From Deltaproteobacteria bacterium (lineage in GTDB: Bacteria; Desulfobacterota; Binatia; DP-6), in the NCBI GenBank assembly GCA_005879795.1, contig VBKJ01000134.1:2515-66514 (forward strand): a DNA stretch of 64,000 bases, written 5' to 3'. Shown here in pieces: positions 6,479 through 15,077 of this stretch. The position numbers were made by a program, and so were the translations under genes. The notes beneath the pieces were generated by a model, which ran no database searches, was not told the DNA's origin, and was given only the letters and a program-made list of their open reading frames with translations. Numbering within the stretch: position 1 is the first letter of the stretch; every line of letters begins with the position of its first letter.

Positions 6479-6520
6479 TAATGGGCGATTGCGGGCGAGC
6501 GTCAAGGCCTGCGCTCGGCA

Positions 6521-6563
6521 GGCTGTCCGGACCACCACGGTGAGCGAGGCGAACGAGCCGGGG
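6521..6563. repeat. Conserved 45-nt intergenic motif, copy 1 (GGCTGTCCGGACCACCACGGTGAGCGAGGCGAACGAGCCGGG)
   Basis: Nearly identical to a second copy at 13139..13183, differing by 1 indel and a few substitutions. It lies in the 400-bp divergent intergenic region between glgC and the HAF-repeat gene. Confidence 0.6.
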
Positions 6564-6895: not shown

Positions 6896-8356
6896 ATGCT
6901 CAAGACGGGTCTTGGCCGTGCTGACGTGCTCGTCGTAGCCGTGCTCCTCTGGCCCCAGCCCGCTCCGGCGGCCCTCTATACCGTCGAGCGCCAGGACGGG
7001 CTGTTCTCCGTCGCCGAGGCGATGAACAGCGCCGGCGACCTCGTCGGGCAGATCTTCGTGCCCGATCCCTGGGGATGGCACGCGACGCTCGTACGCGGTG
7101 GCCGGTCGGTGGATCTGGGCACGCTCCCCGGTGGTGACGTCGCCGACGCGACCGACATCAACGACGCGGGCGAGATCGTGGGCTACTCGAATGCCGGAGA
7201 CTCGGCCACGCACGCCTTCCTCTACGACGCCGCCGGCATGCATGACCTGGGGGCGATCGGCATCGGCAAACGGCCGCGCATCAACAACGCCGGCGACATC
7301 GCGGGGACACGATACGATGGGCGATTCTTCGCCTACCTGCGCGGTCACGACGGGACGACGATCGACATACCGAAGTTCGACGGCGGCACGGTGAACTACG
7401 CCGCCGGCATCGATGCGCGCGGCCGCGTGGCCGGGCACTCCAACTCTGGAACCTTTCCCGGGTACCACGCCTTTCTCTACGACGCTGGAACACTCACCGA
7501 TCTCGGCGTCCTCCCGACGGGTTCTGAAAGTTTCGCCTATGACATGAACGCGTCGGGGGACGTCGTGGGCCAGGCCGATGCCGTACTCTACAGCGACTAC
7601 CACGCAGTACTCTGGCGCGATGGCGCCATCCGCGACCTCGGCATACTGGGCGGCGGACGCGGCGCCAGCTGGCCCTCCCAGATCAACGGCGCGGGACAGG
7701 TGGTCGGGACGTCCTCGGTCCCTGGCGGCGGCGATACGCACGCCTTCCTGTGGGACGAACGACACGGCCTGCGCGATCTGAACGACCTCATCCCGCCCGA
7801 CTCCGGCTGGGTCCTCGAGCAGGGACAGGCGATCGCGGGGACCGGCGACATCGCCGGCTTCGGCTTCCTGAACGGTGAGGGGCACAACTACCGCCTCACA
7901 GCCAGCGACCCGTGCAGGGACATCCCCGGAAGTGCACTGCAGCAGCCACGGCTGCGGATGGGACGGCGCTTCGTCTTCAGCGGCCAGCTGAGCGGAGCGA
8001 GAACACCGGCCATCGATCCCGCGAGCGGGGGCGTTCGGTTGTTGCTCGCCTCCTCCGGGCGGGATGCCGCGTTCGACGCGACGGTGCCCGGCGGCGCAGG
8101 CTGGCGGTGCAGCGGGTCGGGACGGACTTGGACGTACCATGCTCGGGCAGCGGAGCGTGCATTGGACGGGCTCACGCGGGTGAGACTGCGCAGGCTCGGC
8201 ACTGATCCGGGCGCGTTCCACGTGGAGCTCGCCGGCCGCCTCGGGTCCACCGCCGGCGGCCTCAGCACCAGCGGCGCGCTGGACGCGACCATCATGATCG
8301 GGCCACCGATTGTGGGAACCGCGGAGTGCGGCGAGGCGACGTTTCCCCAGCAGTAG
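6896..8356 (+). CDS. Secreted HAF-family extracellular repeat protein
   Basis: 486 aa with a signal-peptide-like N-terminus. It contains at least 5 repeats of about 40 aa built on H-A-F-L-(Y/W)-D ... DLG ... G-x-V-G, matching the TIGR03803 'HAF' repeat. Confidence 0.65.
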   Translation: MLKTGLGRADVLVVAVLLWPQPAPAALYTVERQDGLFSVAEAMNSAGDLVGQIFVPDPWGWHATLVRGGRSVDLGTLPGGDVADATDINDAGEIVGYSNAGDSATHAFLYDAAGMHDLGAIGIGKRPRINNAGDIAGTRYDGRFFAYLRGHDGTTIDIPKFDGGTVNYAAGIDARGRVAGHSNSGTFPGYHAFLYDAGTLTDLGVLPTGSESFAYDMNASGDVVGQADAVLYSDYHAVLWRDGAIRDLGILGGGRGASWPSQINGAGQVVGTSSVPGGGDTHAFLWDERHGLRDLNDLIPPDSGWVLEQGQAIAGTGDIAGFGFLNGEGHNYRLTASDPCRDIPGSALQQPRLRMGRRFVFSGQLSGARTPAIDPASGGVRLLLASSGRDAAFDATVPGGAGWRCSGSGRTWTYHARAAERALDGLTRVRLRRLGTDPGAFHVELAGRLGSTAGGLSTSGALDATIMIGPPIVGTAECGEATFPQQ

Positions 8357-8515
8357 ATCGCGCTCCGGCCTTGAGAGCCGGCCGCGCGCTCCCGGATCGT
8401 CCGCCCCAGCCACCATGGTTTGCTCGGACAGCCTCCTAGGTTGAAGCGCCCAGGCCGAGCCGCTAAGAGGGCACGGGCGCCGCGTGCGCCCTCGGCCGAA
8501 CTGCTGGGAGGGTAC

Positions 8516-8944
8516 ATGCGACACTCGACCCACCTCGTCGTCGCGTGCCTGCTCGCCATCGCGCTCGCGAGCCCGGGGCTCATGGGGATGGGTGGATTCG
8601 GCGGCGGGCGCGAGGAGGGGCAGCCCGCGCGCGACTTCAGCGCCACCTTCACCGACGTCGACGGCACCCGGATGGCCGTGACGCGCGTCACCAGCGGGGG
8701 CGGCGCGAGCCTCGAGGGCGATCTCGGGCGTGGCCGCCTGCGCGTCCCCTTCGACAACATCACCCGCATCACCTTCCAGGCGGCGGAGAACGACCACGAG
8801 CGCGTGCGGGCCGAGGTAACGCTGCGCGAGGGCGAGCCCGTGGCGCTCACCCTGCGCAGCTCGACCACCTTCTACGGGCGGACGCCGGCCGGCGCGTACC
8901 AGATCCGGGCGCGCGATCTCAAGTCGCTTGAGTTCGCCCAGTAG
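8516..8944 (+). CDS. Small secreted hypothetical protein
   Basis: Starts MRHSTHLVVACLLAIALASPG, which looks like a signal peptide. The ATG at 8516 was chosen over the upstream Arg-rich extension. Confidence 0.45.
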   Translation: MRHSTHLVVACLLAIALASPGLMGMGGFGGGREEGQPARDFSATFTDVDGTRMAVTRVTSGGGASLEGDLGRGRLRVPFDNITRITFQAAENDHERVRAEVTLREGEPVALTLRSSTTFYGRTPAGAYQIRARDLKSLEFAQ

Positions 8945-10313
8945 ACGGCGCCGCGCCCGGTGCGCGACGGTCGCGCTGGCGCTCGCCCTCCCGGCCCGCG
9001 CGGCGGCGCTCGACGTGAAGCTGTGGCCGCTTCTCCGCTACGCGCGCGACGAGGCCACGGGCGACGTGCGCGTGACGGCCTTCGGCCCCCTGATCGAGTT
9101 CCGGCGCACGGCCGAGACCCGCGACCTCCTGATCCGCCCCCTGCTCCGCCTGCACCAGCGGCGCGGCGCCGCGCACGACGACCGCTCCGACATCCTCTAC
9201 CCGCTCGTCTCGACGCGCTGGCAGGACGACTACCAGAGCTTGCGCCTGCTCCTCTTCACCTACCGTACGGGCGCCCGCGCCGCGGCGCCGCCCGCGGAGA
9301 GCGAGACGGCTCGGGCGCGCGCGTGGGCGAGCCGCTTCACGCTCTTCCCGTTCGTCTTCTACCGCTCGAGCCCCGAGCGCGGGCGCCAGCTCTCGGTGGC
9401 CCCCTTTTATCTGGACCTCGACCACTTCCTCGGCTACGAGCGCGTGCGGATGGTGATGTTCCCCGCCTATCTCGGACTCTCCGAGCCGCGGGTCGAGCGG
9501 CGGTACTACGCCTTCCCGTTCGTCGCCACCTACGGCGGGCCGGGCGGCCGCGGGTTCCGCGTGCTGCCCTTCTACGGCACGCGGGAGGTCGTCGGCGAGG
9601 AGCGGACGAGCTTCGTGCTCTGGCCCTTCCACATCCGCAGCGAGCGCCTGGTGCCCGGCTACGGCTGGGAGCGCCGGCGCATCGACCTGCCCTTCTTCGC
9701 CGCCATCGACGGCGCCGGGCGCCGCGTGCGCAGCTACGGCCTCTTCGCCTACACGCTCGCCGTCGACGAGCGGAAGGGGACTGAGAGCATCGGCGCGCCC
9801 TGGCCGCTGGTGTTTCGCCAGCGGCGGCTCGGCGACCGCGACTGGCAGGTCTGGCGGGTCTTCCCCTTCTACGCTAGGAGCGACGTGCGGGGTATCTCGT
9901 CGCGGCTCTACGCCTGGCCCGCCTACCGGCGAAAGTCCGAGGACGTGGATGACTACCACTACGAGCGCCGGCGCGTGCTCGAGTTCCTCTGGCGGCGCCA
10001 GACGCTGGTGAACGAGACCTCGGGCCACCGCGAGACCCTCACCACGATGTTCCCCTGGCTCCGCAGCGAGCGAGACGACCGGCGCGCCTTCGGCCAGACG
10101 CCGGCGCTCCTGGACAGCCTTCTCCCGAAAAACCCGGGGCTCCTCGCCCTGTGGGCGCCGCTCTACGGTGTCGTGCGCTGGGACACGCGCCCCGACGGCG
10201 CGCGCGACTGGAACCTCCTCTGGGGGCTCGCGGCCCGCGAGGACGGCCGGCTCCTCGCCCCCTGGCACCTGGAGCTCGCGCCCGCGGCGCAGGACGGGGC
10301 CCATGGCGGTTGA
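8928..10313 (+). CDS. Secreted hypothetical protein (aromatic-rich, possibly outer-membrane), upstream of and coupled to mlaE
   Basis: 461 aa starting at a TTG (8928). It has an RRRRAR plus hydrophobic signal region and many F/Y/W-P repeats (FPFV, FPAY, LPFY). It overlaps mlaE by 11 nt. Confidence 0.45.
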   Translation: MSSPSRRRRARCATVALALALPARAAALDVKLWPLLRYARDEATGDVRVTAFGPLIEFRRTAETRDLLIRPLLRLHQRRGAAHDDRSDILYPLVSTRWQDDYQSLRLLLFTYRTGARAAAPPAESETARARAWASRFTLFPFVFYRSSPERGRQLSVAPFYLDLDHFLGYERVRMVMFPAYLGLSEPRVERRYYAFPFVATYGGPGGRGFRVLPFYGTREVVGEERTSFVLWPFHIRSERLVPGYGWERRRIDLPFFAAIDGAGRRVRSYGLFAYTLAVDERKGTESIGAPWPLVFRQRRLGDRDWQVWRVFPFYARSDVRGISSRLYAWPAYRRKSEDVDDYHYERRRVLEFLWRRQTLVNETSGHRETLTTMFPWLRSERDDRRAFGQTPALLDSLLPKNPGLLALWAPLYGVVRWDTRPDGARDWNLLWGLAAREDGRLLAPWHLELAPAAQDGAHGG

Positions 10314-11118
10314 GGCGATCGGTCGCGCGCCGCGCCCGCCGGGCGCGCTCGCGCGCCTCGGCGCGAGCCTCCTCGACGGCCTCCAGGTCCTCGGCGAGGC
10401 GACCCGCCTCTTCTTCGCGACCGTGCGCGCGGCGGCCTTCGTGCCCGCCGACCGCCAGCGCGTCGTCGTGCAGATGGTGCGCGTCGGGACCGACACGCTC
10501 CTGATCGGCGCGCTCCTCTCCCTCTTCGTCGGCATGGTGATGGTGGTGCAGGCGGCCGACCAGCTGCGCGACGTGAGCCAGGACATCCTCGGCCCGATCG
10601 TCGGGCTCGCCATGACGAAGGAGCTCGGGCCGGTCCTCATGGCCTTCCTCCTCGCCGGGCGAGCCGGGTCGGCGATGGCCGCGGAGCTGGGCTCGATGAC
10701 CGTCTACGACGAGATCAACGCGCTCCGCACCATGGACATCGACCCGGTGCGCTTCCTCGTCATGCCGCGCTTCGTGGCGGCCACGGTCGCGCTTCCCGTG
10801 CTCATCCTCTACGCCGACTTCATCGGCGTGTGGGGCGGGGCCGCCGTGGTCGCCGCCGACCCGGCGATCACGATCCCGGTCAGCAGCTACTTCGCGCGCA
10901 TGCTCGAGTGGGTGCACTTCACCGACCTCGTCGTGGGCCTGGTGAAGGGCGTGGTCTTCGGCATGGTGGCCTCGATCCTGCCCTGCACCTTCGGGCTGCG
11001 CACGCGCGGCGGCACCGAGGGCATCGCCGCCTCGACCACCGCGGCCGTGGTGTGGAGCTTCATCCTGATCCTGGTCTTCGACTTCCTGATCGTGCGCGTT
11101 ACCTTCGCGCTCGACTAG
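10303..11118 (+). CDS. mlaE: ABC transporter permease, MlaE/YrbE family
   Basis: 271 aa from MAVEAIGRAP (ATG 10303). It has multipass TM segments and the MlaE-type conserved core (GPVLMAFLLAGRAGSAMAAELGSM). Confidence 0.8.
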   Translation: MAVEAIGRAPRPPGALARLGASLLDGLQVLGEATRLFFATVRAAAFVPADRQRVVVQMVRVGTDTLLIGALLSLFVGMVMVVQAADQLRDVSQDILGPIVGLAMTKELGPVLMAFLLAGRAGSAMAAELGSMTVYDEINALRTMDIDPVRFLVMPRFVAATVALPVLILYADFIGVWGGAAVVAADPAITIPVSSYFARMLEWVHFTDLVVGLVKGVVFGMVASILPCTFGLRTRGGTEGIAASTTAAVVWSFILILVFDFLIVRVTFALD

Positions 11119-11473
11119 GAGTCCGTCCGACTGAAGACTACGCGATCTGTCGCCCGCGGTAGGAGATTTGTTTCGACGGACCTGGGGGATTTGGGCTAGG
11201 GTCCCGACGGTACTTCGCGGGTCTCTGGGAACGTCTGGATCACCCGTGGTTGCGAACAGTCCGATTTGCGGCTGGGCACCCCGCATTCCGAAAGGGGTGA
11301 GGCGCTCCCCAAGAGGGAGGGGGTTCTCCTGCCGGCGCAGCGATTGCAGGCTCAATCTGGCATGTTGCCTCGCGCCTCTGCCGGACTGCGCGAACCCACG
11401 CGCTGGAAAGCAGATGACGCCAATCGCCGCATAGTTCCGCCATTCTCGTCCTTGTAAGACTTACCCATTAGCC

Positions 11474-11737
11474 GTGAAACATTTGCGTTCCGCTCTCACC
11501 GGTGCTGGCCTTGCCGCGATTGCCACCTCGGACCTTCTCCCTCCATCTGCTTGCGGGCACGGCGGTCGCCCAATCGACCACCCCGACGTTCGTTTGGGGG
11601 GGCGGCATCGCTCAACCGAGCCGTACGACGCCCCTGCGCAGGTCACGTCTCGGTCAACGTCTGACCGGCGTTGCCAGTTGAATCAGGTGAGCAGCGCGTC
11701 GCGCTGCGCTTCGTCGTCTTCTGAACCCAGGAGCTGA
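11474..11737 (+). CDS. Possible small ORF (87 aa) with a signal-peptide-like N-terminus, ending immediately upstream of the DUF1566 gene; doubtful
   Basis: Starts MKHLRSALTGAGLAAIATS. Its third-position codon usage is T-rich, atypical for this genome. It lies in a lower-GC 620-bp non-coding stretch. Confidence 0.15.
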   Translation: MKHLRSALTGAGLAAIATSDLLPPSACGHGGRPIDHPDVRLGGRHRSTEPYDAPAQVTSRSTSDRRCQLNQVSSASRCASSSSEPRS

Positions 11738-11739
11738 AT

Positions 11740-12939
11740 ATGAGGACGCTCGTACCCTTCCTGCTCAGTCTCGTCTCGCTGCTCGGACCGCGCAGCGGAT
11801 GGGGTTGTCAACTGCCTGCGACCGGGCAGACGACGTGTTGGGACACCAACGGGAGCGTCGTCCCGTGTGCCGGCACGGGTCAGGACGGCGACCTCCGGGA
11901 GGGAGCCCCGCTCGCGTACGTCGACAACGGAGACGGGACGGTCACGGACGTGACCACCGGGCTCGTGTGGGAGAAGCTCTCGAACGACGGGACGGTGCAC
12001 GACAAGGACAACTTGTACACGTGGGCCAACGCGTTCGCGGGGCACGTGGCGACGCTCAACGGCACGACCTTCGCGGGCCACGCCGACTGGCGGCTGCCGA
12101 ATTTGCGGGAGCTGCAGAGCATCGCGAACTACCAGAACGCCCTGCCGGCGGTGTCCCCGGCCTTCAACAACAACTGCTCGTCGGGCTGCCCCGTGACCAC
12201 GTGCAGCTGCACCTACAACGGCGACTACTGGTCGTCCACGTCCGAGGCCCTCAGCCCGTCGCATGCGTGGTTCGTGGACTTCCAGGACGGCCTCCTGGCC
12301 ACGGGCGGTAAGACCGGCACCGAACCCGTTCGGGCCGTGCGGGGCGGCTCGACGTCCTGCCCGCTGCCTGCGACCGGGCAGACGACGTGTTGGGACAGCA
12401 GTGGGAGCGTCATCCCGTGTGCCGGCACGGGTCAGGACGGCGACCTCCGGGAGGGAGCCCCGCTCACGTACGTCGACAACGGGAACGGGACGGTCACGGA
12501 CGTGAACACCGGGCTCGTGTGGGAGAAGCTCTCGGACGACGGGACGGTCCACGACAAGGACAACTTGTACACGTGGGCCAACGCGTTCACCGGGCACGTG
12601 GCGATACTCAACGGCATGAGCTTCGCCGGCCACGCCGACTGGCGGGTACCGAACGTGCGCGAGCTGCAGAGCATCCTGAACTACCAGAACGTCCTACCGC
12701 CCGTGTCCCCCGCCTTCAACAACAACTGCTCGGCGGGCTGCTCCGCGACCACGTGCAGCTGCACCCTCGAGGGCGACTACTGGTCGTCCACGTCCAGCGT
12801 CTCCGGTCCGTCGAATGCGTGGTTCGTCGGCTTCCAGTACGCCAACGTGAACTCCTTCGGCAGGACTGGCGGCAAGAGTGGCACGGCCTCCGTTCGGGCC
12901 GTGCGCGGCAGCTCCAGCTGTTGCGGGTGCGGTGGGTGA
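11740..12939 (+). CDS. Secreted protein with two tandem DUF1566 (Lcl C-terminal-like) domains
   Basis: 399 aa with a signal peptide. Two repeats of about 185 aa each contain TGLVWEKLS.DGTVHDKDNLYTWANAF, the WRLPN(L/V)RELQSI motif, DYWSST and a Cys-rich tail. Confidence 0.6.
   Translation: MRTLVPFLLSLVSLLGPRSGWGCQLPATGQTTCWDTNGSVVPCAGTGQDGDLREGAPLAYVDNGDGTVTDVTTGLVWEKLSNDGTVHDKDNLYTWANAFAGHVATLNGTTFAGHADWRLPNLRELQSIANYQNALPAVSPAFNNNCSSGCPVTTCSCTYNGDYWSSTSEALSPSHAWFVDFQDGLLATGGKTGTEPVRAVRGGSTSCPLPATGQTTCWDSSGSVIPCAGTGQDGDLREGAPLTYVDNGNGTVTDVNTGLVWEKLSDDGTVHDKDNLYTWANAFTGHVAILNGMSFAGHADWRVPNVRELQSILNYQNVLPPVSPAFNNNCSAGCSATTCSCTLEGDYWSSTSSVSGPSNAWFVGFQYANVNSFGRTGGKSGTASVRAVRGSSSCCGCGG
11806..12912 (+). 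repeat. Direct tandem duplication (2 units of about 553 bp) inside the DUF1566 gene
   Basis: Unit 2 (about 12358-12912) repeats unit 1 (about 11806-12357) with high nucleotide identity; for example CTGCCTGCGACCGGGCAGACGACGTGTTGGGACA occurs at 11811 and 12363. The duplication is in frame. Confidence 0.8.
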
Positions 12940-13138
12940 AGTCCTCGTAGACCCGCGCCGGCTGCCCCGTGGCCCGTGGAGGAGCGCCGCCACCACCGGC
13001 CAGCCGCCGATCCCTTGGAAACCGAGCTGGTCTGCCCTACAGTCTGTGCGCACCACGCCGCCCCTCCCGCTGGGCTTTCTCTTCGCAAAGGAGCCGGGCC
13101 GGGGGGTGCGATTTGTCTACGGTGAGAGATCCGGCCTG

Positions 13139-13183
13139 GGAGGCTGTCGGCACAGCCATGGCGAGCGAGGCGAACGAGCCGGG
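13139..13183. repeat. Conserved 45-nt intergenic motif, copy 2
   Basis: GGAGGCTGTCGGCACAGCCATGGCGAGCGAGGCGAACGAGCCGGG. It sits about 150 bp upstream of mlaF and matches copy 1 at 6521..6563. Confidence 0.6.
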
Positions 13184-13332
13184 CAGCGAGAGCCGGAAGC
13201 GCAGCGCACGACCGACGAGGCGTGTCGAACGCACCCGGCGCTCCGCGCCGCGGGCGCACGGGAGCAGCGAGCACCCCCTCCGATCGCTCGCCGCAGCCGG
13301 CATGGTCACCCGACCGCCGCTAGCCAACTAGC

Positions 13333-14100
13333 ATGGCGGTGGCGGCCGAGCGCGCGAAGGGCGTACCGGTCGAGCTGGCCGGAGTACGGAAGTCGTACGA
13401 CGACCACCTCGTCCTGGCGGGCGTCGACCTGAGCGTGGCGCCGGGCGAGCTGGTGGCCATCGTCGGCCAGAGCGGCACGGGGAAGTCGGTGCTGCTGCGC
13501 CAGATCGTCGGCCTCGAGGGGCCGGACGCCGGCCGCATCACGGTGGGCGGGATCGAGCTGGGCGAGTACCTCGCCCTCCCGCCCGAGGAGAAGCCCTTCC
13601 GCATCGCCATGGTCTTCCAATCCTCCGCGCTCCTGGCCTCGCTCACCGTGGGCGAGAACGTGGGGCTGCGCCTGCGCGAGCGCGGCCGCCACGCACCGGC
13701 CGAGATCGCCGCCATCACCCGCCGCGTCCTCGAGCAGGTGGAGCTTGCCGGCACGGAAGAGAAGCTCCCGGGCGAGCTGTCGGGCGGCATGCGCAAGCGG
13801 GTCGCGATCGCGCGCGCGCTCGCCATCGACCCCGAGCTCATCCTCTACGACGAGCCGACCGCCGACCTGGACCCCATCCTGACCGAGCAGATCGGGCAGC
13901 TGATCGCGCGCATCCGCACGCTGCGCGGCCACACCCAGCTCATCGTCACGCACAACCTGCCCCTGGCGCGCGCCATCGCCGACCGCATCGCGGTGCTCGC
14001 CGAGGGCCGCATTGCCGAGTGCGTCACGCCCGCCGAGCTCGCCGCGAGCCGCCACCCGCTCACGCGCGAGTTCCTGCGGGCGTCCGCCCTCGCCGGCTAG
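13333..14100 (+). CDS. mlaF: ABC transporter ATP-binding protein, MlaF-like
   Basis: 255 aa with a Walker A (GQSGTGKS), an ABC signature (LSGGMRKRVAIARAL) and a Walker B (LILYDEPTADLD). Confidence 0.8.
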   Translation: MAVAAERAKGVPVELAGVRKSYDDHLVLAGVDLSVAPGELVAIVGQSGTGKSVLLRQIVGLEGPDAGRITVGGIELGEYLALPPEEKPFRIAMVFQSSALLASLTVGENVGLRLRERGRHAPAEIAAITRRVLEQVELAGTEEKLPGELSGGMRKRVAIARALAIDPELILYDEPTADLDPILTEQIGQLIARIRTLRGHTQLIVTHNLPLARAIADRIAVLAEGRIAECVTPAELAASRHPLTREFLRASALAG

Positions 14101-14108
14101 GAGACGCC

Positions 14109-15077
14109 ATGCTCACCAACGAACAGCGGATCGGCATCTTCTTCATCGTGGGGCTCGTGCTCTTCTTCATCGCGATCGAGCTGACGCTCGGCCTCGGGCT
14201 CTTCACCCGCCGTTACCCGCTCTACGCCACCTTCCGCGACGTGCAGGGCCTCGACACGGGGGCCGACGTGCGGGTCGCGGGCATCAAGGCGGGCCGCGTC
14301 GAGAGCATGCGCATCGAGCACGGCGCCGTGGTCGTCAAGATGGCGATCGACGCGCGTTTCGAGGTGAAGAAGGACTCGCTCGCGCGCCTCGACTTCCGGG
14401 CGCTCAGCGGCGACCGCTTCATCGCCCTCTCGCTCGGCACGCCGACCGCCAGGCGCGCCGAGCCGGGCGACACCCTCGAGGGCGAGACGCCGGCCAGCTT
14501 CACCGACGTGGTCGACAAGCTCTCGACGGTCGCCGAGAGCGTGACCAACCTGACCGACAACCTGAACCGCAACGCCGAGCGCCTGCTCGCCAACCTGGCC
14601 GACCTGGTCGAGGAGAACCAGGGCGCGATCGGCGCCACGGCGCAGAACCTCGCCTCCATCACCGGGAAGCTCGACCGGGGGACGGGGACGCTCGGGCTCC
14701 TGCTCAACGACCGGGCGCTCTACGACCGGGTCACCGACACCATGGGCGACGTGCGCCGGTCGGTCGCGGACCTGGGCGTCGTGGCGCACGACCTGGCCGA
14801 GGGCAAGGGCACGCTCGGCAAGCTCGTGAGCCAGGACGACGGCCTCTACGCGGAGGTGCGCGAGACGGTCGCGAGCCTCGGCGCCACGGCCCGCAACGCC
14901 GAGGAGATCACCGACAACCTGCGCACGGGCCAGGGCACGGTCGGCAAGGCGCTCACCGACGACTCCCTGTACACCGAGGCCCAGGACACGCTCCGCACCG
15001 TCAACCGCGCGACGCAGTCCGTCGAGGATCAGTCGGCGATCTCGCTCCTCGGGACGGTCGTGACCAGCCTGTTCTGA
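14109..15077 (+). CDS. mlaD: MCE-domain periplasmic substrate-binding protein, MlaD-like
   Basis: Starts MLTNEQRIGIFFIVGLVLFFIAI, an N-terminal TM segment. The MCE domain is present (ATFRDVQGLDTGADVRVAGIKAGRVES), followed by a long coiled C-terminal extension. Confidence 0.75.
   Translation: MLTNEQRIGIFFIVGLVLFFIAIELTLGLGLFTRRYPLYATFRDVQGLDTGADVRVAGIKAGRVESMRIEHGAVVVKMAIDARFEVKKDSLARLDFRALSGDRFIALSLGTPTARRAEPGDTLEGETPASFTDVVDKLSTVAESVTNLTDNLNRNAERLLANLADLVEENQGAIGATAQNLASITGKLDRGTGTLGLLLNDRALYDRVTDTMGDVRRSVADLGVVAHDLAEGKGTLGKLVSQDDGLYAEVRETVASLGATARNAEEITDNLRTGQGTVGKALTDDSLYTEAQDTLRTVNRATQSVEDQSAISLLGTVVTSLF

What the first reader, a model, noticed from the sequence alone, without database searches (positions are those of the whole stretch)
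11119..13332. Mla operon split by a 2.2 kb insertion carrying an internally duplicated DUF1566 adhesin-like gene
mlaE ends at 11118, while mlaF and mlaD start at 13333 and 14109. The intervening segment has a lower-GC 620-bp non-coding stretch (11119-11739) and a signal-peptide protein made of two DUF1566/Lcl-C-terminal-like domains of about 185 aa (11740-12939). At the DNA level the second domain is a near-perfect in-frame tandem duplication of the first (units about 11806-12357 and 12358-12912). This points to a recent duplication, and probably a recent insertion into an otherwise conserved mlaFEDCB-type operon.
Basis: seen in the sequence. Interest (0 to 1): 0.55.

Follow-up and report, generated by a model that had tools for sequence, protein, structure and literature searches.

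The report
Lectin-like gene inserted into Mla operon
In one soil Binatia species, a 2.2 kb segment carrying a secreted two-domain lectin-like (DUF1566/Lcl_C) gene and its own upstream region sits between two normally overlapping lipid-transporter genes; this is a real, strain-variable insertion, but both the gene type and its two-domain layout are common, so it is ordinary.

Summary
The coordinates and gene calls are correct. mlaE ends at 11118, and a 399-aa ORF (11740-12939) has two Pfam Lcl_C/DUF1566 units. mlaF starts at 13333 and mlaD at 14109.

The insertion reading is strongly supported. Sixteen other Binatia species have the mlaE stop overlapping the mlaF start (TGATG/ATGA). One contig from the same population (L134) also keeps the empty site. 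Seventeen independent metagenome contigs carry the insert, so it is not an assembly artefact.

The "near-perfect, recent duplication" reading is not supported:
- The units are 87% identical in DNA and 78% in protein.
- Nearly all 120 best homologues have the same two-unit layout, including copies elsewhere in the genome.
- The C-terminal third of each unit groups by position across homologues (bootstrap 99/100).
- Only the 5' two-thirds look homogenised, probably by gene conversion.

The "non-coding" 620 bp is not featureless. It holds a conserved upstream module with a decayed gene start, shared with paralogues and with an unrelated secreted-protein gene.

The locus varies between strains: frameshifted, single-unit, indel and empty alleles all occur. 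I found no transposase, terminal repeats, DGR signature or plasmid match.

Verdict: a new member of a known kind, of low to moderate interest.

The parts
8420..10313 (+). Two conserved upstream genes of the operon (up174 at 8420-8944, up461 at 8928-10313). Neither has a Pfam or NCBIfam match. up461 overlaps the mlaE start by 11 nt.
   Evidence: Synteny is conserved in 16 Binatia genomes. No family hits. Gene calls.
10303..11118 (+). mlaE permease (271 aa as called by gene callers), with a TAG stop at 11116-11118.
   Evidence: PF02405, E 3e-66. The identical protein occurs on 9 other contigs.
11119..11290 (.). Left junction DNA with no homologue found. Its first ~10 nt (GAGTCCGTCC) resemble the start of the L136-type segment and window 13139-13148.
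   Evidence: No blastn or tblastx match in paralogue loci or empty sites. Replaced by 85 unrelated bp in allele L085. Junction comparison.
11291..11352 (+). Conserved upstream blocks A (GAAAGGGGTGAGG...GAGGGAGGGG) and B (GGCGCAGCGATTGC, 11334-11347).
   Evidence: Alignment A1 of five loci from four genomic contexts. Block B is present in 24 of the 136 loci fetched by then, and in every one of these 24 block C had been found. Both blocks also lie upstream of an unrelated secreted-protein gene.
11441..11510 (+). Conserved block C: a fossil translation start (TTGTAAG...GTG at 11474, encoding 'MKHLRSAL...', which resembles a signal peptide).
   Evidence: The pattern occurs once in the window, with 0 expected. 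It gave 35 metagenome hits: 17 high-GC hits with an Lcl_C gene 100-290 bp downstream, and 4 high-GC hits where it is the real start of a 720-910 aa secreted protein.
11474..11737 (+). Decayed upstream ORF (87 aa here), most likely not a real gene. It ends 2 nt before the Lcl_C ATG.
   Evidence: Its length is 13, 14, 36, 63, 75 or 87 aa in different loci, and homologous bases are read in different frames.
11740..12939 (+). Secreted tandem Lcl_C/DUF1566 protein (399 aa). Signal peptide in codons 1-22, unit 1 at 11806-12357, unit 2 at 12358-12915, and a Cys-rich tail SSSCCGCGG.
   Evidence: Pfam. AlphaFold2 model with pLDDT 83 and pTM 0.83. Best PDB match is the Legionella Lcl C-terminal domain 8q4e (E 1.5e-4, probability 1.0), followed by C-type lectin-like domains.
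11806..12357 (+). Repeat unit 1 (184 codons).
12358..12915 (+). Repeat unit 2 (186 codons). It contains the site of a 10-bp frameshift deletion (12369-12378) seen in alleles L124 and L128.
12940..13332 (.). Right junction DNA at host-like GC (0.73). About 340 bp of it is missing in allele L085. A 97-bp indel lies near 12998. 13139-13227 is homologous (87%) to the DNA that directly follows mlaE in allele L136. A 21-mer at 13163-13183 is repeated at 6542-6562. No terminator was detected.
13333..14100 (+). mlaF ATPase. There is no Shine-Dalgarno upstream. The start codon lies in a stem-loop (13309-13345).
   Evidence: Pfam ABC_tran. Fold of 13280-13345: -31.7 kcal/mol, z -1.9, matched by 5 of 200 shuffles.
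14109..15077 (+). mlaD / MCE-domain subunit (322 aa).
   Evidence: PF02470. Gene calls with PF28544 Helical_needle.

Best explanation
The window comes from a soil Binatia bacterium. In the lineage of this one species, about 2.2 kb of DNA was inserted exactly at the overlapping stop/start junction (ancestrally gacTGATGgcg) between mlaE and mlaF. These genes belong to an Mla/MCE-type ABC lipid-transporter operon.

What the insert carries (shown). The core of the insert (11291-12916) is a copy of a gene cassette that also exists elsewhere in related genomes. It has a conserved upstream module followed by a gene for a secreted protein. That module probably supplies a promoter and leader, and it contains the fossil of an older gene start. 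The protein is made of two tandem C-type-lectin-like Lcl_C/DUF1566 units.

How old the two-unit layout is (shown). The layout is older than the insertion and is the norm for this family. The C-terminal third of each unit has diverged in a position-specific way. In this lineage the first ~330 nt of the units were later homogenised by gene conversion. That homogenisation is what made the pair look like a fresh duplication.

What the protein does (inferred). It is probably an extracellular ligand- or carbohydrate-binding protein. Close paralogues carry dockerin or other C-terminal anchoring modules that this copy lacks.

Effect on the operon (inferred). The insertion broke the translational coupling of mlaE and mlaF. 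mlaF and mlaD, which remain intact, are probably now expressed by read-through from mlaE and/or from the cassette's promoter.

Selective status (inferred). The insert is polymorphic and unstable in the population, with empty, frameshifted, single-unit and indel alleles. This fits a recent, largely neutral passenger rather than a new component of the Mla machine.
For: Insertion:
- 16 Binatia species have adjacent or overlapping mlaE/mlaF with conserved synteny.
- Contig L134 from the same soil sample series keeps the empty site. Its 1666 bp of up461-mlaE are 99.94% identical to the window.
- 17 independent contigs from about 17 assemblies carry the insert.

Cassette origin:
- Homologues at 71-81% aa identity lie in other contexts, next to beta-helix/NosD or PNP_UDP genes.
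- Their nucleotide homology to the window spans only 11291-12916.
- Blocks A, B and C are shared across these contexts and with an unrelated secreted-protein gene, where block C is the real RBS, GTG start and signal peptide.

Old duplication plus gene conversion:
- Two units are present in nearly all of the 120 top homologues.
- In the C-terminal part, the window's unit 1 matches homologue unit 1 at 61-95% and homologue unit 2 at 56-63%.
- NJ bootstrap for the C-terminal part: unit-1 clade 99/100.
- In the N-terminal part, units 1 and 2 of the window and of P0001 cluster together, as do those of P0002.
- 5' dS within a gene is 0.15-0.21, against 0.25-0.31 between genes at the same position.

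Fold:
- AlphaFold2 pLDDT 83. Foldseek top hit is 8q4e, the Lcl C-terminal domain, followed by C-type lectin-like domains.
- The Lcl paper describes the same fold and a possible carbohydrate-recognition role (PMC11162425).

Instability:
- 10-bp frameshift deletion in L124 and L128.
- 552-bp single-unit allele in L100/L125.
- 97-bp indel (present in L127 and L131, absent from the window), 103-bp deletion in L003 and ~340-bp deletion in L085.

Read-through:
- Same strand, and no terminator-like fold after the gene.
Against: - No mobility signature was found: no transposase, no terminal inverted repeats (scores at shuffle level), no clean target-site duplication, no tRNA, no plasmid match. The insertion mechanism is therefore unknown.
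- The donor copy was not found. The nearest out-of-context relative is only 81% identical.
- 172 bp on the left and about 400 bp on the right have no identified source.
- All comparison sequences are short-read metagenome contigs. L134 (empty site joined to a 91.6%-identical mlaF) and L100 (single unit) could be strain-chimeric or repeat-collapsed assemblies.
- The signal peptide, secretion, ligand binding, promoter activity of the module and the effect on mlaFD expression are all inferred, not measured.
- The 5' dS contrast supporting gene conversion is modest, and one paralogue (L088) does not show it.
Confidence: 0.78

Rival explanations
1. One reading: the second domain arose by a recent in-frame tandem duplication at this locus, at or after the insertion.
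For: The offset is exactly 552 nt and in frame. The first 300 nt are 93% identical. dS between the units is low (0.15-0.20).
Against: Paralogues in other contexts and about 120 homologues have the same two-unit layout. C-terminal parts group by position with 99/100 bootstrap support, and the window's units never form a cherry there. The window's unit 1 is closer to P0002's unit 1 (80% in the C-terminal part) than to its own unit 2 (67%).
Confidence: 0.05
2. The gene is ancestral between mlaE and mlaF and was lost in all other lineages.
For: Two fairly divergent alleles (94.5% nt identity, dS 0.09) occupy the same site. The insert is therefore not brand new.
Against: This would need precise, scarless loss that restores an overlapping or closely adjacent mlaE stop and mlaF start in 16 species spanning 59-85% MlaE identity. 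The cassette's nearest relatives sit in unrelated contexts. The insert has lower GC than its surroundings.
Confidence: 0.03
3. The repeat pair is a diversity-generating retroelement (DGR) system, with a template repeat and a variable region in a DUF1566 C-type-lectin target.
For: DUF1566 domains are a recognised class of DGR targets (PMC5758913). Divergence between the units is concentrated towards the C-terminal part of the lectin-like fold (dN/dS 1.09 in codons 100-150).
Against: Mismatches are not adenine-specific. Only 7 of 40 fall at A in unit 1 and 9 of 40 at A in unit 2, against 19% A content. No further template-like copy exists in the 64-kb window. No reverse-transcriptase family appears among Pfam-annotated neighbours about 6 kb either side. 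Both copies are coding units of one gene and are 550 nt long, far longer than DGR repeats.
Confidence: 0.02
4. The insert or its internal repeat is an assembly artefact.
For: The repeats share exact stretches of 30-45 nt that can confuse short-read assemblers. One contig shows a collapsed single unit (L100), and one is chimeric with another paralogue (L099).
Against: 17 contigs from about 17 independent assemblies (JGI, ENA, NCBI) reproduce the same junctions. Those that span the gene reproduce the two-unit structure, and 4 of them encode a protein 100% identical to the window's.
Confidence: 0.02
5. The lectin-like protein has been recruited as a functional accessory of the Mla/MCE transporter, for example as a periplasmic or outer-membrane partner.
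For: It sits in the same transcriptional orientation inside an envelope-lipid transport operon. It is secreted and rich in disulfide-forming cysteines. dN/dS between the two alleles is 0.40, so there is some purifying selection.
Against: It is absent from every other Binatia Mla operon. Paralogues are never Mla-linked. Frameshifted and empty alleles coexist in the population.
Confidence: 0.05

Closest known systems
Pfam PF07603 Lcl_C / DUF1566 family; solved example: Legionella pneumophila Lcl C-terminal domain (PDB 8q4e; PMC11162425)
   Same: Both units match the Pfam model far above threshold. The predicted fold matches 8q4e best, then C-type lectin-like domains. Like Lcl, the protein is secreted or extracellular.
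   Different: It has no collagen-like repeats and no N-terminal coiled coil. It has two tandem units, each with a ~45-residue N-terminal extension (CxLPATGQTTCW...). Each unit has 7 cysteines, whereas the Lcl C-terminal domain has no disulfides. Sequence identity to 8q4e is only 26%. Trimerisation and glycosaminoglycan binding are untested.
Tandem two-unit DUF1566 proteins of Binatia, Thermoanaerobaculia and Limnocylindrales (annotated only as 'DUF1566 domain-containing protein')
   Same: Same architecture: signal peptide plus two Lcl_C units, about 400 aa, with 40-93% identity over more than 90% of the length.
   Different: This copy sits inside an Mla operon. It lacks the Thr/Ser linker plus dockerin, or other C-terminal modules, found in its closest paralogues (P0002-P0012). 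It ends in an odd CCGCGG tail.
Mla / MCE ABC transporter operons (E. coli mlaFEDCB; mycobacterial yrbE-mce)
   Same: MlaE permease, MlaF ATPase and an MlaD/MCE-domain protein are encoded together and intact.
   Different: The order is E-F-D. No mlaC or mlaB is adjacent. Two uncharacterised conserved genes lie upstream. mlaE/mlaF coupling is interrupted by 2.2 kb in this lineage only.
DGR 'CLec2' DUF1566 targets such as Legionella LdtA (PMC5758913)
   Same: Same domain family. Variation is concentrated towards the C-terminal part of the lectin-like fold.
   Different: No adenine-specific mutation pattern, no template repeat and no reverse transcriptase nearby.
Leptospira DUF1566 surface adhesins (e.g. 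Lsa25, NCBIfam NF047850)
   Same: A short shared DUF1566 motif (residues 59-91).
   Different: 43 bits against a cut-off of 260, so it is not a member. 'Adhesin' remains only an analogy.

Membership tests
Pfam PF07603 Lcl_C (DUF1566) domain family | HMM match above the gathering score | tested here: met
   183.6 bits against a cut-off of 34.9; two stretches, including residues 66-201.
Pfam PF07603 Lcl_C (DUF1566) domain family | C-type-lectin-like fold as in the solved Lcl C-terminal domain | tested here: met
   AlphaFold2 model (pLDDT 83). Foldseek top hit 8q4e_A: E 1.5e-4, probability 1.0, target TM-score 0.60. C-type lectin-like domains follow. This rests on a predicted model, not a solved structure.
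Legionella Lcl adhesin proper | Collagen-like repeat stalk and N-terminal helix giving a trimeric lollipop | tested here: not met
   No collagen repeat or other Pfam domain. The sequence consists only of a signal peptide and two Lcl_C units.
Legionella Lcl adhesin proper | Binding of sulphated glycosaminoglycans | not testable with these tools
   This needs binding assays. The basic surface residues of Lcl were not compared.
Mla / MCE ABC transporter operon | MlaE permease, MlaF ATPase and an MlaD (MCE) protein encoded together | tested here: met
   PF02405 at E 3e-66, PF00005 at E 1e-30, PF02470 at E 4e-15.
   The order is E-F-D. The next gene is a convergent short-chain dehydrogenase. No MlaC or MlaB (STAS) family appears among annotated neighbours.
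Diversity-generating retroelement target | Template and variable repeat pair differing at template adenines | tested here: not met
   40 mismatches. Only 7 fall at A in unit 1 and 9 at A in unit 2. No third copy in the window.
Diversity-generating retroelement target | Reverse transcriptase gene nearby | tested here: inconclusive
   None among Pfam-annotated genes about 6 kb on either side. The rest of the 64-kb window was not scanned with an RT model.
Insertion sequence / transposon / MITE | Terminal inverted repeats, target-site duplication, transposase | tested here: not met
   Alignment scores for the ends are at shuffle level. There is only an imperfect ACTAG...ACTAG or ~9-15-nt degenerate direct repeat at the borders. 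No transposase-like ORF or family hit.
Dockerin-bearing DUF1566 paralogues | C-terminal Thr/Ser linker plus a type I dockerin | tested here: not met
   P0002 has Dockerin_1 (E 2e-7). The window protein stops 8 codons after unit 2. tblastn finds no dockerin remnant in 12850-13400.

The most novel reading that the evidence does not exclude
The conserved A-B-C module (window 11291-11510) could be a portable promoter and leader unit. It appears to have been reused in front of unrelated secreted-protein genes in this Binatia clade. Its arrival inside the Mla operon would then have uncoupled mlaE from mlaF and put the transporter's ATPase and MCE subunits partly under the control of a secreted-lectin promoter. 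The many coexisting alleles (empty, L136-type, frameshifted, single-unit) would then reflect ongoing selection on that rewiring rather than neutral decay.
Probability: 0.12. Interest if true: 0.45.

Novelty: new member of a known kind. Interest (0 to 1): 0.25.

Why it matters
There are three modest points of value:
- It is a clean natural example of an insertion landing exactly in an overlapping stop/start junction of an envelope-lipid transporter operon. Empty and filled alleles still coexist, so the cost of breaking translational coupling could be studied directly.
- It shows how partial gene conversion between tandem lectin-like domains can mimic a fresh duplication. This is a caution for sequence-only readers.
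- It flags a conserved upstream module shared by secreted-protein genes in an uncultured phylum with almost no known regulatory biology.

None of this overturns current understanding. DUF1566 tandem proteins are abundant and their function remains unknown.

Tried and rejected
- Rfam scan of 10500-14000 at E<=1 found nothing.
- The window has no tRNA or tmRNA.
- The sigma-70 promoter scan found none. The single terminator-like site (11146-11163) folds no better than shuffles.
- RNAalifold on the upstream module gave -4.3 kcal/mol with a positive (unfavourable) covariation term, so there is no support for a structured RNA. One of the seven input sequences (L105) was taken from the wrong strand and should be ignored.
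- The upstream ORF 11474-11737 and the right-flank ORFs (12969-13331; 13158-13331) were rejected as real genes. They have no family hits. The upstream ORF varies in length and frame between loci, and a 1-nt indel relative to L136 breaks the frame of the right-flank ORF.
- The right flank is not a decayed dockerin or linker.
- tblastx of the flanks against all loci gave only compositional noise.
- The test for terminal inverted repeats under the one-step and two-step insertion models was at chance level.
- The plasmid database gave no match.
- Sequence search of the PDB with the single protein gave nothing significant. A profile gave only weak hits, including 8q4e at E 5.6e-4.
- The DGR hypothesis was rejected.
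- I did not identify the donor locus or the origin of 11119-11290 and 12917-13332.
Full report
**What is there.** The window is high-GC DNA (about 72%) from a soil member of Candidatus Binatia, judged from the titles of the closest genome records. Around the finding, the plus strand encodes:
- two conserved uncharacterised genes (8420-8944 and 8928-10313);
- mlaE (10303-11118; PF02405, E 3e-66);
- a 621-bp gap;
- a 399-aa ORF (11740-12939) with two Pfam Lcl_C/DUF1566 matches (E 1.6e-54);
- a 393-bp gap;
- mlaF (13333-14100) and mlaD (14109-15077).

GC drops to 0.63 in 11150-11750 and to 0.65-0.71 in the ORF, against 0.72-0.79 in the flanking genes.

**The repeat.** The ORF matches itself at an offset of exactly 552 nt.
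- Unit 1 (11806-12357) and unit 2 (12358-12915) are 87% identical in DNA, with three small in-frame indels near the 3' end.
- Identity is 93% over the first 300 nt and much lower over the last third.
- Protein identity is 78% overall: 86% for residues 1-110 of the unit and 67% for the rest.
- Nei-Gojobori distances are dS 0.20 and dN 0.125. dS rises from 0.11-0.18 in the first 100 codons to 0.45 in the last 38. dN/dS is about 1.1 in codons 100-150.

So the repeat is real and far beyond chance, but it is not "near-perfect".

**It is an insertion.** A scan of one genome per species with MlaE returned 16 Binatia loci (MlaE 59-85% identical).
- Every one has the order up174-up461-mlaE-mlaF-mlaD, with no gene between mlaE and mlaF.
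- In the closest of them the mlaE stop and mlaF start overlap (cTGATGg or cATGAg), the classic arrangement for translational coupling. In the rest they lie at most a few tens of bases apart.
- The insert occurs only in contigs that are near-identical to the window.
- Looking up contigs that encode exactly the window's Lcl_C, MlaE or MlaF protein, plus a DNA-pattern scan, gave 17 distinct contigs from about 17 assemblies that carry it. This excludes an assembly artefact.
- Contig L134, from the same sample series, is 99.94% identical to the window over 1666 bp of up461-mlaE. It then reads gacTGATGGCGGCGG straight into mlaF, which is an empty site. Its mlaF is only 91.6% identical to the window's. 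L134 is therefore either a recombinant strain or a strain-chimeric contig. Either way, a very close relative lacks the insert.

**The duplication is not recent.** A protein search returned 6688 homologues at E<=1e-10. In nearly all of the best 120 there are two tandem units. The sources include Binatia, Thermoanaerobaculia and Limnocylindrales MAGs.
- The closest relatives outside the Mla site (71-81% identical; P0002, P0005, P0020) lie next to beta-helix/NosD-like or PNP_UDP genes.
- In the C-terminal part of the units, the window's unit 1 is 61-95% identical to unit 1 of these proteins but only 56-63% to their unit 2, and the same holds for unit 2.
- A neighbour-joining bootstrap on that part puts all unit 1 sequences of 14 close homologues in one clade 99 times in 100, and unit 2 sequences 53 times in 100. 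The window's two units are never sisters.
- In the N-terminal 110 residues the picture differs. Units 1 and 2 of the window and of its allele P0001 cluster together, and so do the two units of P0002.
- Synonymous distances in that part are lower within a gene (0.15-0.21) than between genes at the same position (0.25-0.31) in three lineages.

The simplest reading is an old duplication followed by gene conversion of the 5' two-thirds in this lineage. Contig L100/L125 carries a single hybrid unit, with a crossover near codon 70 and exactly 552 bp missing. This is what unequal recombination between the units would give, although repeat collapse by the assembler cannot be excluded.

**The 620-bp "non-coding" stretch.** Nucleotide homology between the window and the out-of-context paralogues runs from about 11291 to 12916. 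An alignment of five loci from four contexts shows three islands of conservation separated by unalignable sequence:
- block A, around 11291-11322;
- block B, GGCGCAGCGATTGC at 11334-11347;
- block C, 11441-11510.

A block C pattern with 21 specified bases occurs once in the window (0 expected) and 35 times in the metagenome collection.
- 17 hits are in high-GC contigs with an Lcl_C gene 100-290 bp downstream.
- 14 are in unrelated low- to moderate-GC (0.36-0.54) contigs and are taken as chance.
- 4 are in high-GC contigs where blocks A, B and C precede a different gene. There, block C is plainly the ribosome-binding site, GTG start and signal peptide (MKHLPSAL...) of a 720-910-aa secreted protein with a weak fibronectin-III match.

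In the Lcl_C loci the ORF from that GTG is 13 to 87 aa long, and homologous bases are read in different frames. It is therefore a decayed gene start, not a gene. Block B occurs in 24 of the 136 loci fetched up to that call, always alongside block C. I found no Rfam match and no support for a conserved RNA structure. I infer that the module is the cassette's own promoter and leader region, but this is not shown.

**The junction DNA and mechanism.** The outer 172 bp on the left and about 400 bp on the right match nothing in the paralogue loci, the empty sites or the plasmid collection. There is no transposase, and no terminal inverted repeat was detected. The borders carry only ACTAG...ACTAG, while the empty site reads ACTGA.

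A third junction type, L136, has mlaE-TAG followed at once by a diverged (87%) copy of window 13139-13227. No Lcl_C gene is seen in the 93 bp available. The first bases of the window's insert (GAGTCCGTCC) resemble the start of that segment (GAGTCTGTTG in L136, GAGGCTGTCG at 13139). This hints at a two-step history: first a short segment, then the cassette inserted into its 5' end. I hold this loosely. A 21-mer from this segment is repeated exactly at 6542-6562, upstream of glgC, and I cannot explain it.

**Population variation.** Besides the empty and L136-type sites, I found these alleles:
- a second Lcl_C allele (L085: 94.5% nt identity, dS 0.09, dN/dS 0.40) with a different left 85 bp and about 340 bp of the right flank missing;
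- a 10-bp deletion (12369-12378) that splits the gene into 251 and 145 aa, in two samples;
- a 97-bp indel near 12998;
- a 103-bp deletion at 11614-11716.

Strains L001 and L002 differ from the window by 5-16% in up461 and the 5' part of mlaE, yet have almost no differences across the insert. That points to recombination around the locus. This pattern fits a recent, weakly selected passenger.

**What the protein is.** An AlphaFold2 model built from 41 aligned homologues is confident (pLDDT 83, pTM 0.83; residues 1-20 and 392-399 are disordered).
- Its best solved match is the Legionella Lcl C-terminal domain (8q4e: E 1.5e-4, probability 1.0, 26% identity). C-type lectin-like domains and the Bdellovibrio Bd2740 C-terminal domain follow.
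- The Lcl study describes that domain as C-type-lectin-like and suggests that DUF1566 may act in carbohydrate recognition or trimer formation (PMC11162425).
- The window protein differs from Lcl in having no collagen stalk, two units, seven cysteines per unit and an N-terminal CxLPATGQTTCW extension in each unit.
- Close paralogues add a Thr/Ser linker plus a type I dockerin, or other C-terminal modules. This copy stops just after unit 2.
- The match to the Leptospira adhesin Lsa25 model is far below threshold (43 against 260 bits).

Secretion by a Sec signal peptide (cleavage after GWG) and ligand binding are my inferences.

**Effect on the operon (inferred).** mlaF has no Shine-Dalgarno, either here or in the relatives, and ancestrally it overlapped the mlaE stop. 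After the insertion its ATG lies in a stem-loop (z -1.9), 393 bp downstream of the Lcl_C stop, with no terminator-like fold in between. mlaF and mlaD are intact. They are probably transcribed by read-through from mlaE and/or the cassette.

**Rivals.**
- DGR: DUF1566 is a known DGR target class (PMC5758913). Here, however, the mismatches are not adenine-biased, there is no template copy, and no reverse transcriptase lies nearby.
- Ancestral presence with repeated loss would need 16 scarless deletions.
- Recruitment into the Mla machine is unlikely, given the frameshifted and empty alleles.

**Verdict.** This is a real, lineage-specific and polymorphic insertion of an ordinary family member. The "recent duplication" is an old duplication whose 5' part was refreshed by gene conversion. 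It is a new member of a known kind, with interest about 0.25.

Noticed in passing
window 11291-11510; loci L092, L105, L117, L122, L086-L088: A three-block conserved module (A, B, C) lies upstream of both Lcl_C genes and an unrelated 720-910-aa secreted-protein gene in high-GC soil contigs. Block C is that protein's RBS, GTG start and signal peptide. In the Lcl_C loci it survives only as a decayed start.
   Followed up: partly
window 6542-6562 and 13163-13183 (extended: 6517-6562 vs 13138-13183); L136 1438-1535: An exact 21-mer (GAGCGAGGCGAACGAGCCGGG; 0.02 expected) is repeated on the same strand, upstream of glgC and in the right flank of the insert. A diverged copy directly follows mlaE in contig L136. 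Its nature is unexplained.
   Followed up: partly
window ~9000-10950 compared with L001 and L002: Strains that are almost identical across the insert differ by 5-16% per 200 bp in up461 and the 5' part of mlaE (L001 is also near-identical for 6 kb downstream; L002 has some differences there). This sharp divergence boundary near 11000 suggests recombination or a hypervariable up461.
   Followed up: no
L017 2818-4287: Another Binatota lineage has a different ~1.4-kb ORF between mlaF and mlaD in the same operon. It looks like a multi-pass membrane protein and has no Pfam match. This operon has therefore accepted insertions more than once.
   Followed up: partly
window 8420-10313: Two genes with no Pfam or NCBIfam match (174 and 461 aa, the latter with a signal-peptide-like start) are conserved immediately upstream of mlaE. 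The 461-aa gene overlaps mlaE, and both are present in nearly all of the Binatia relatives. They may be uncharacterised partners of this MCE transporter.
   Followed up: no
L099 790-1069: This contig is identical to the window up to the conserved DWRLP motif of unit 1. It then continues as a different DUF1566 paralogue. It is either a natural paralogue recombinant or a chimeric assembly.
   Followed up: no
window 13309-13345: A stable stem-loop encloses the mlaF start codon (-31.7 kcal/mol for 13280-13345; 5 of 200 shuffles fold as well). A spurious-looking ORF ends 1 nt before the ATG. This could matter for mlaF translation after the loss of coupling.
   Followed up: partly
window 6896-8356: A 486-aa secreted-looking protein with a weak DUF3466 match (E 1.8e-7) lies upstream of the operon. 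It was not examined further.
   Followed up: no
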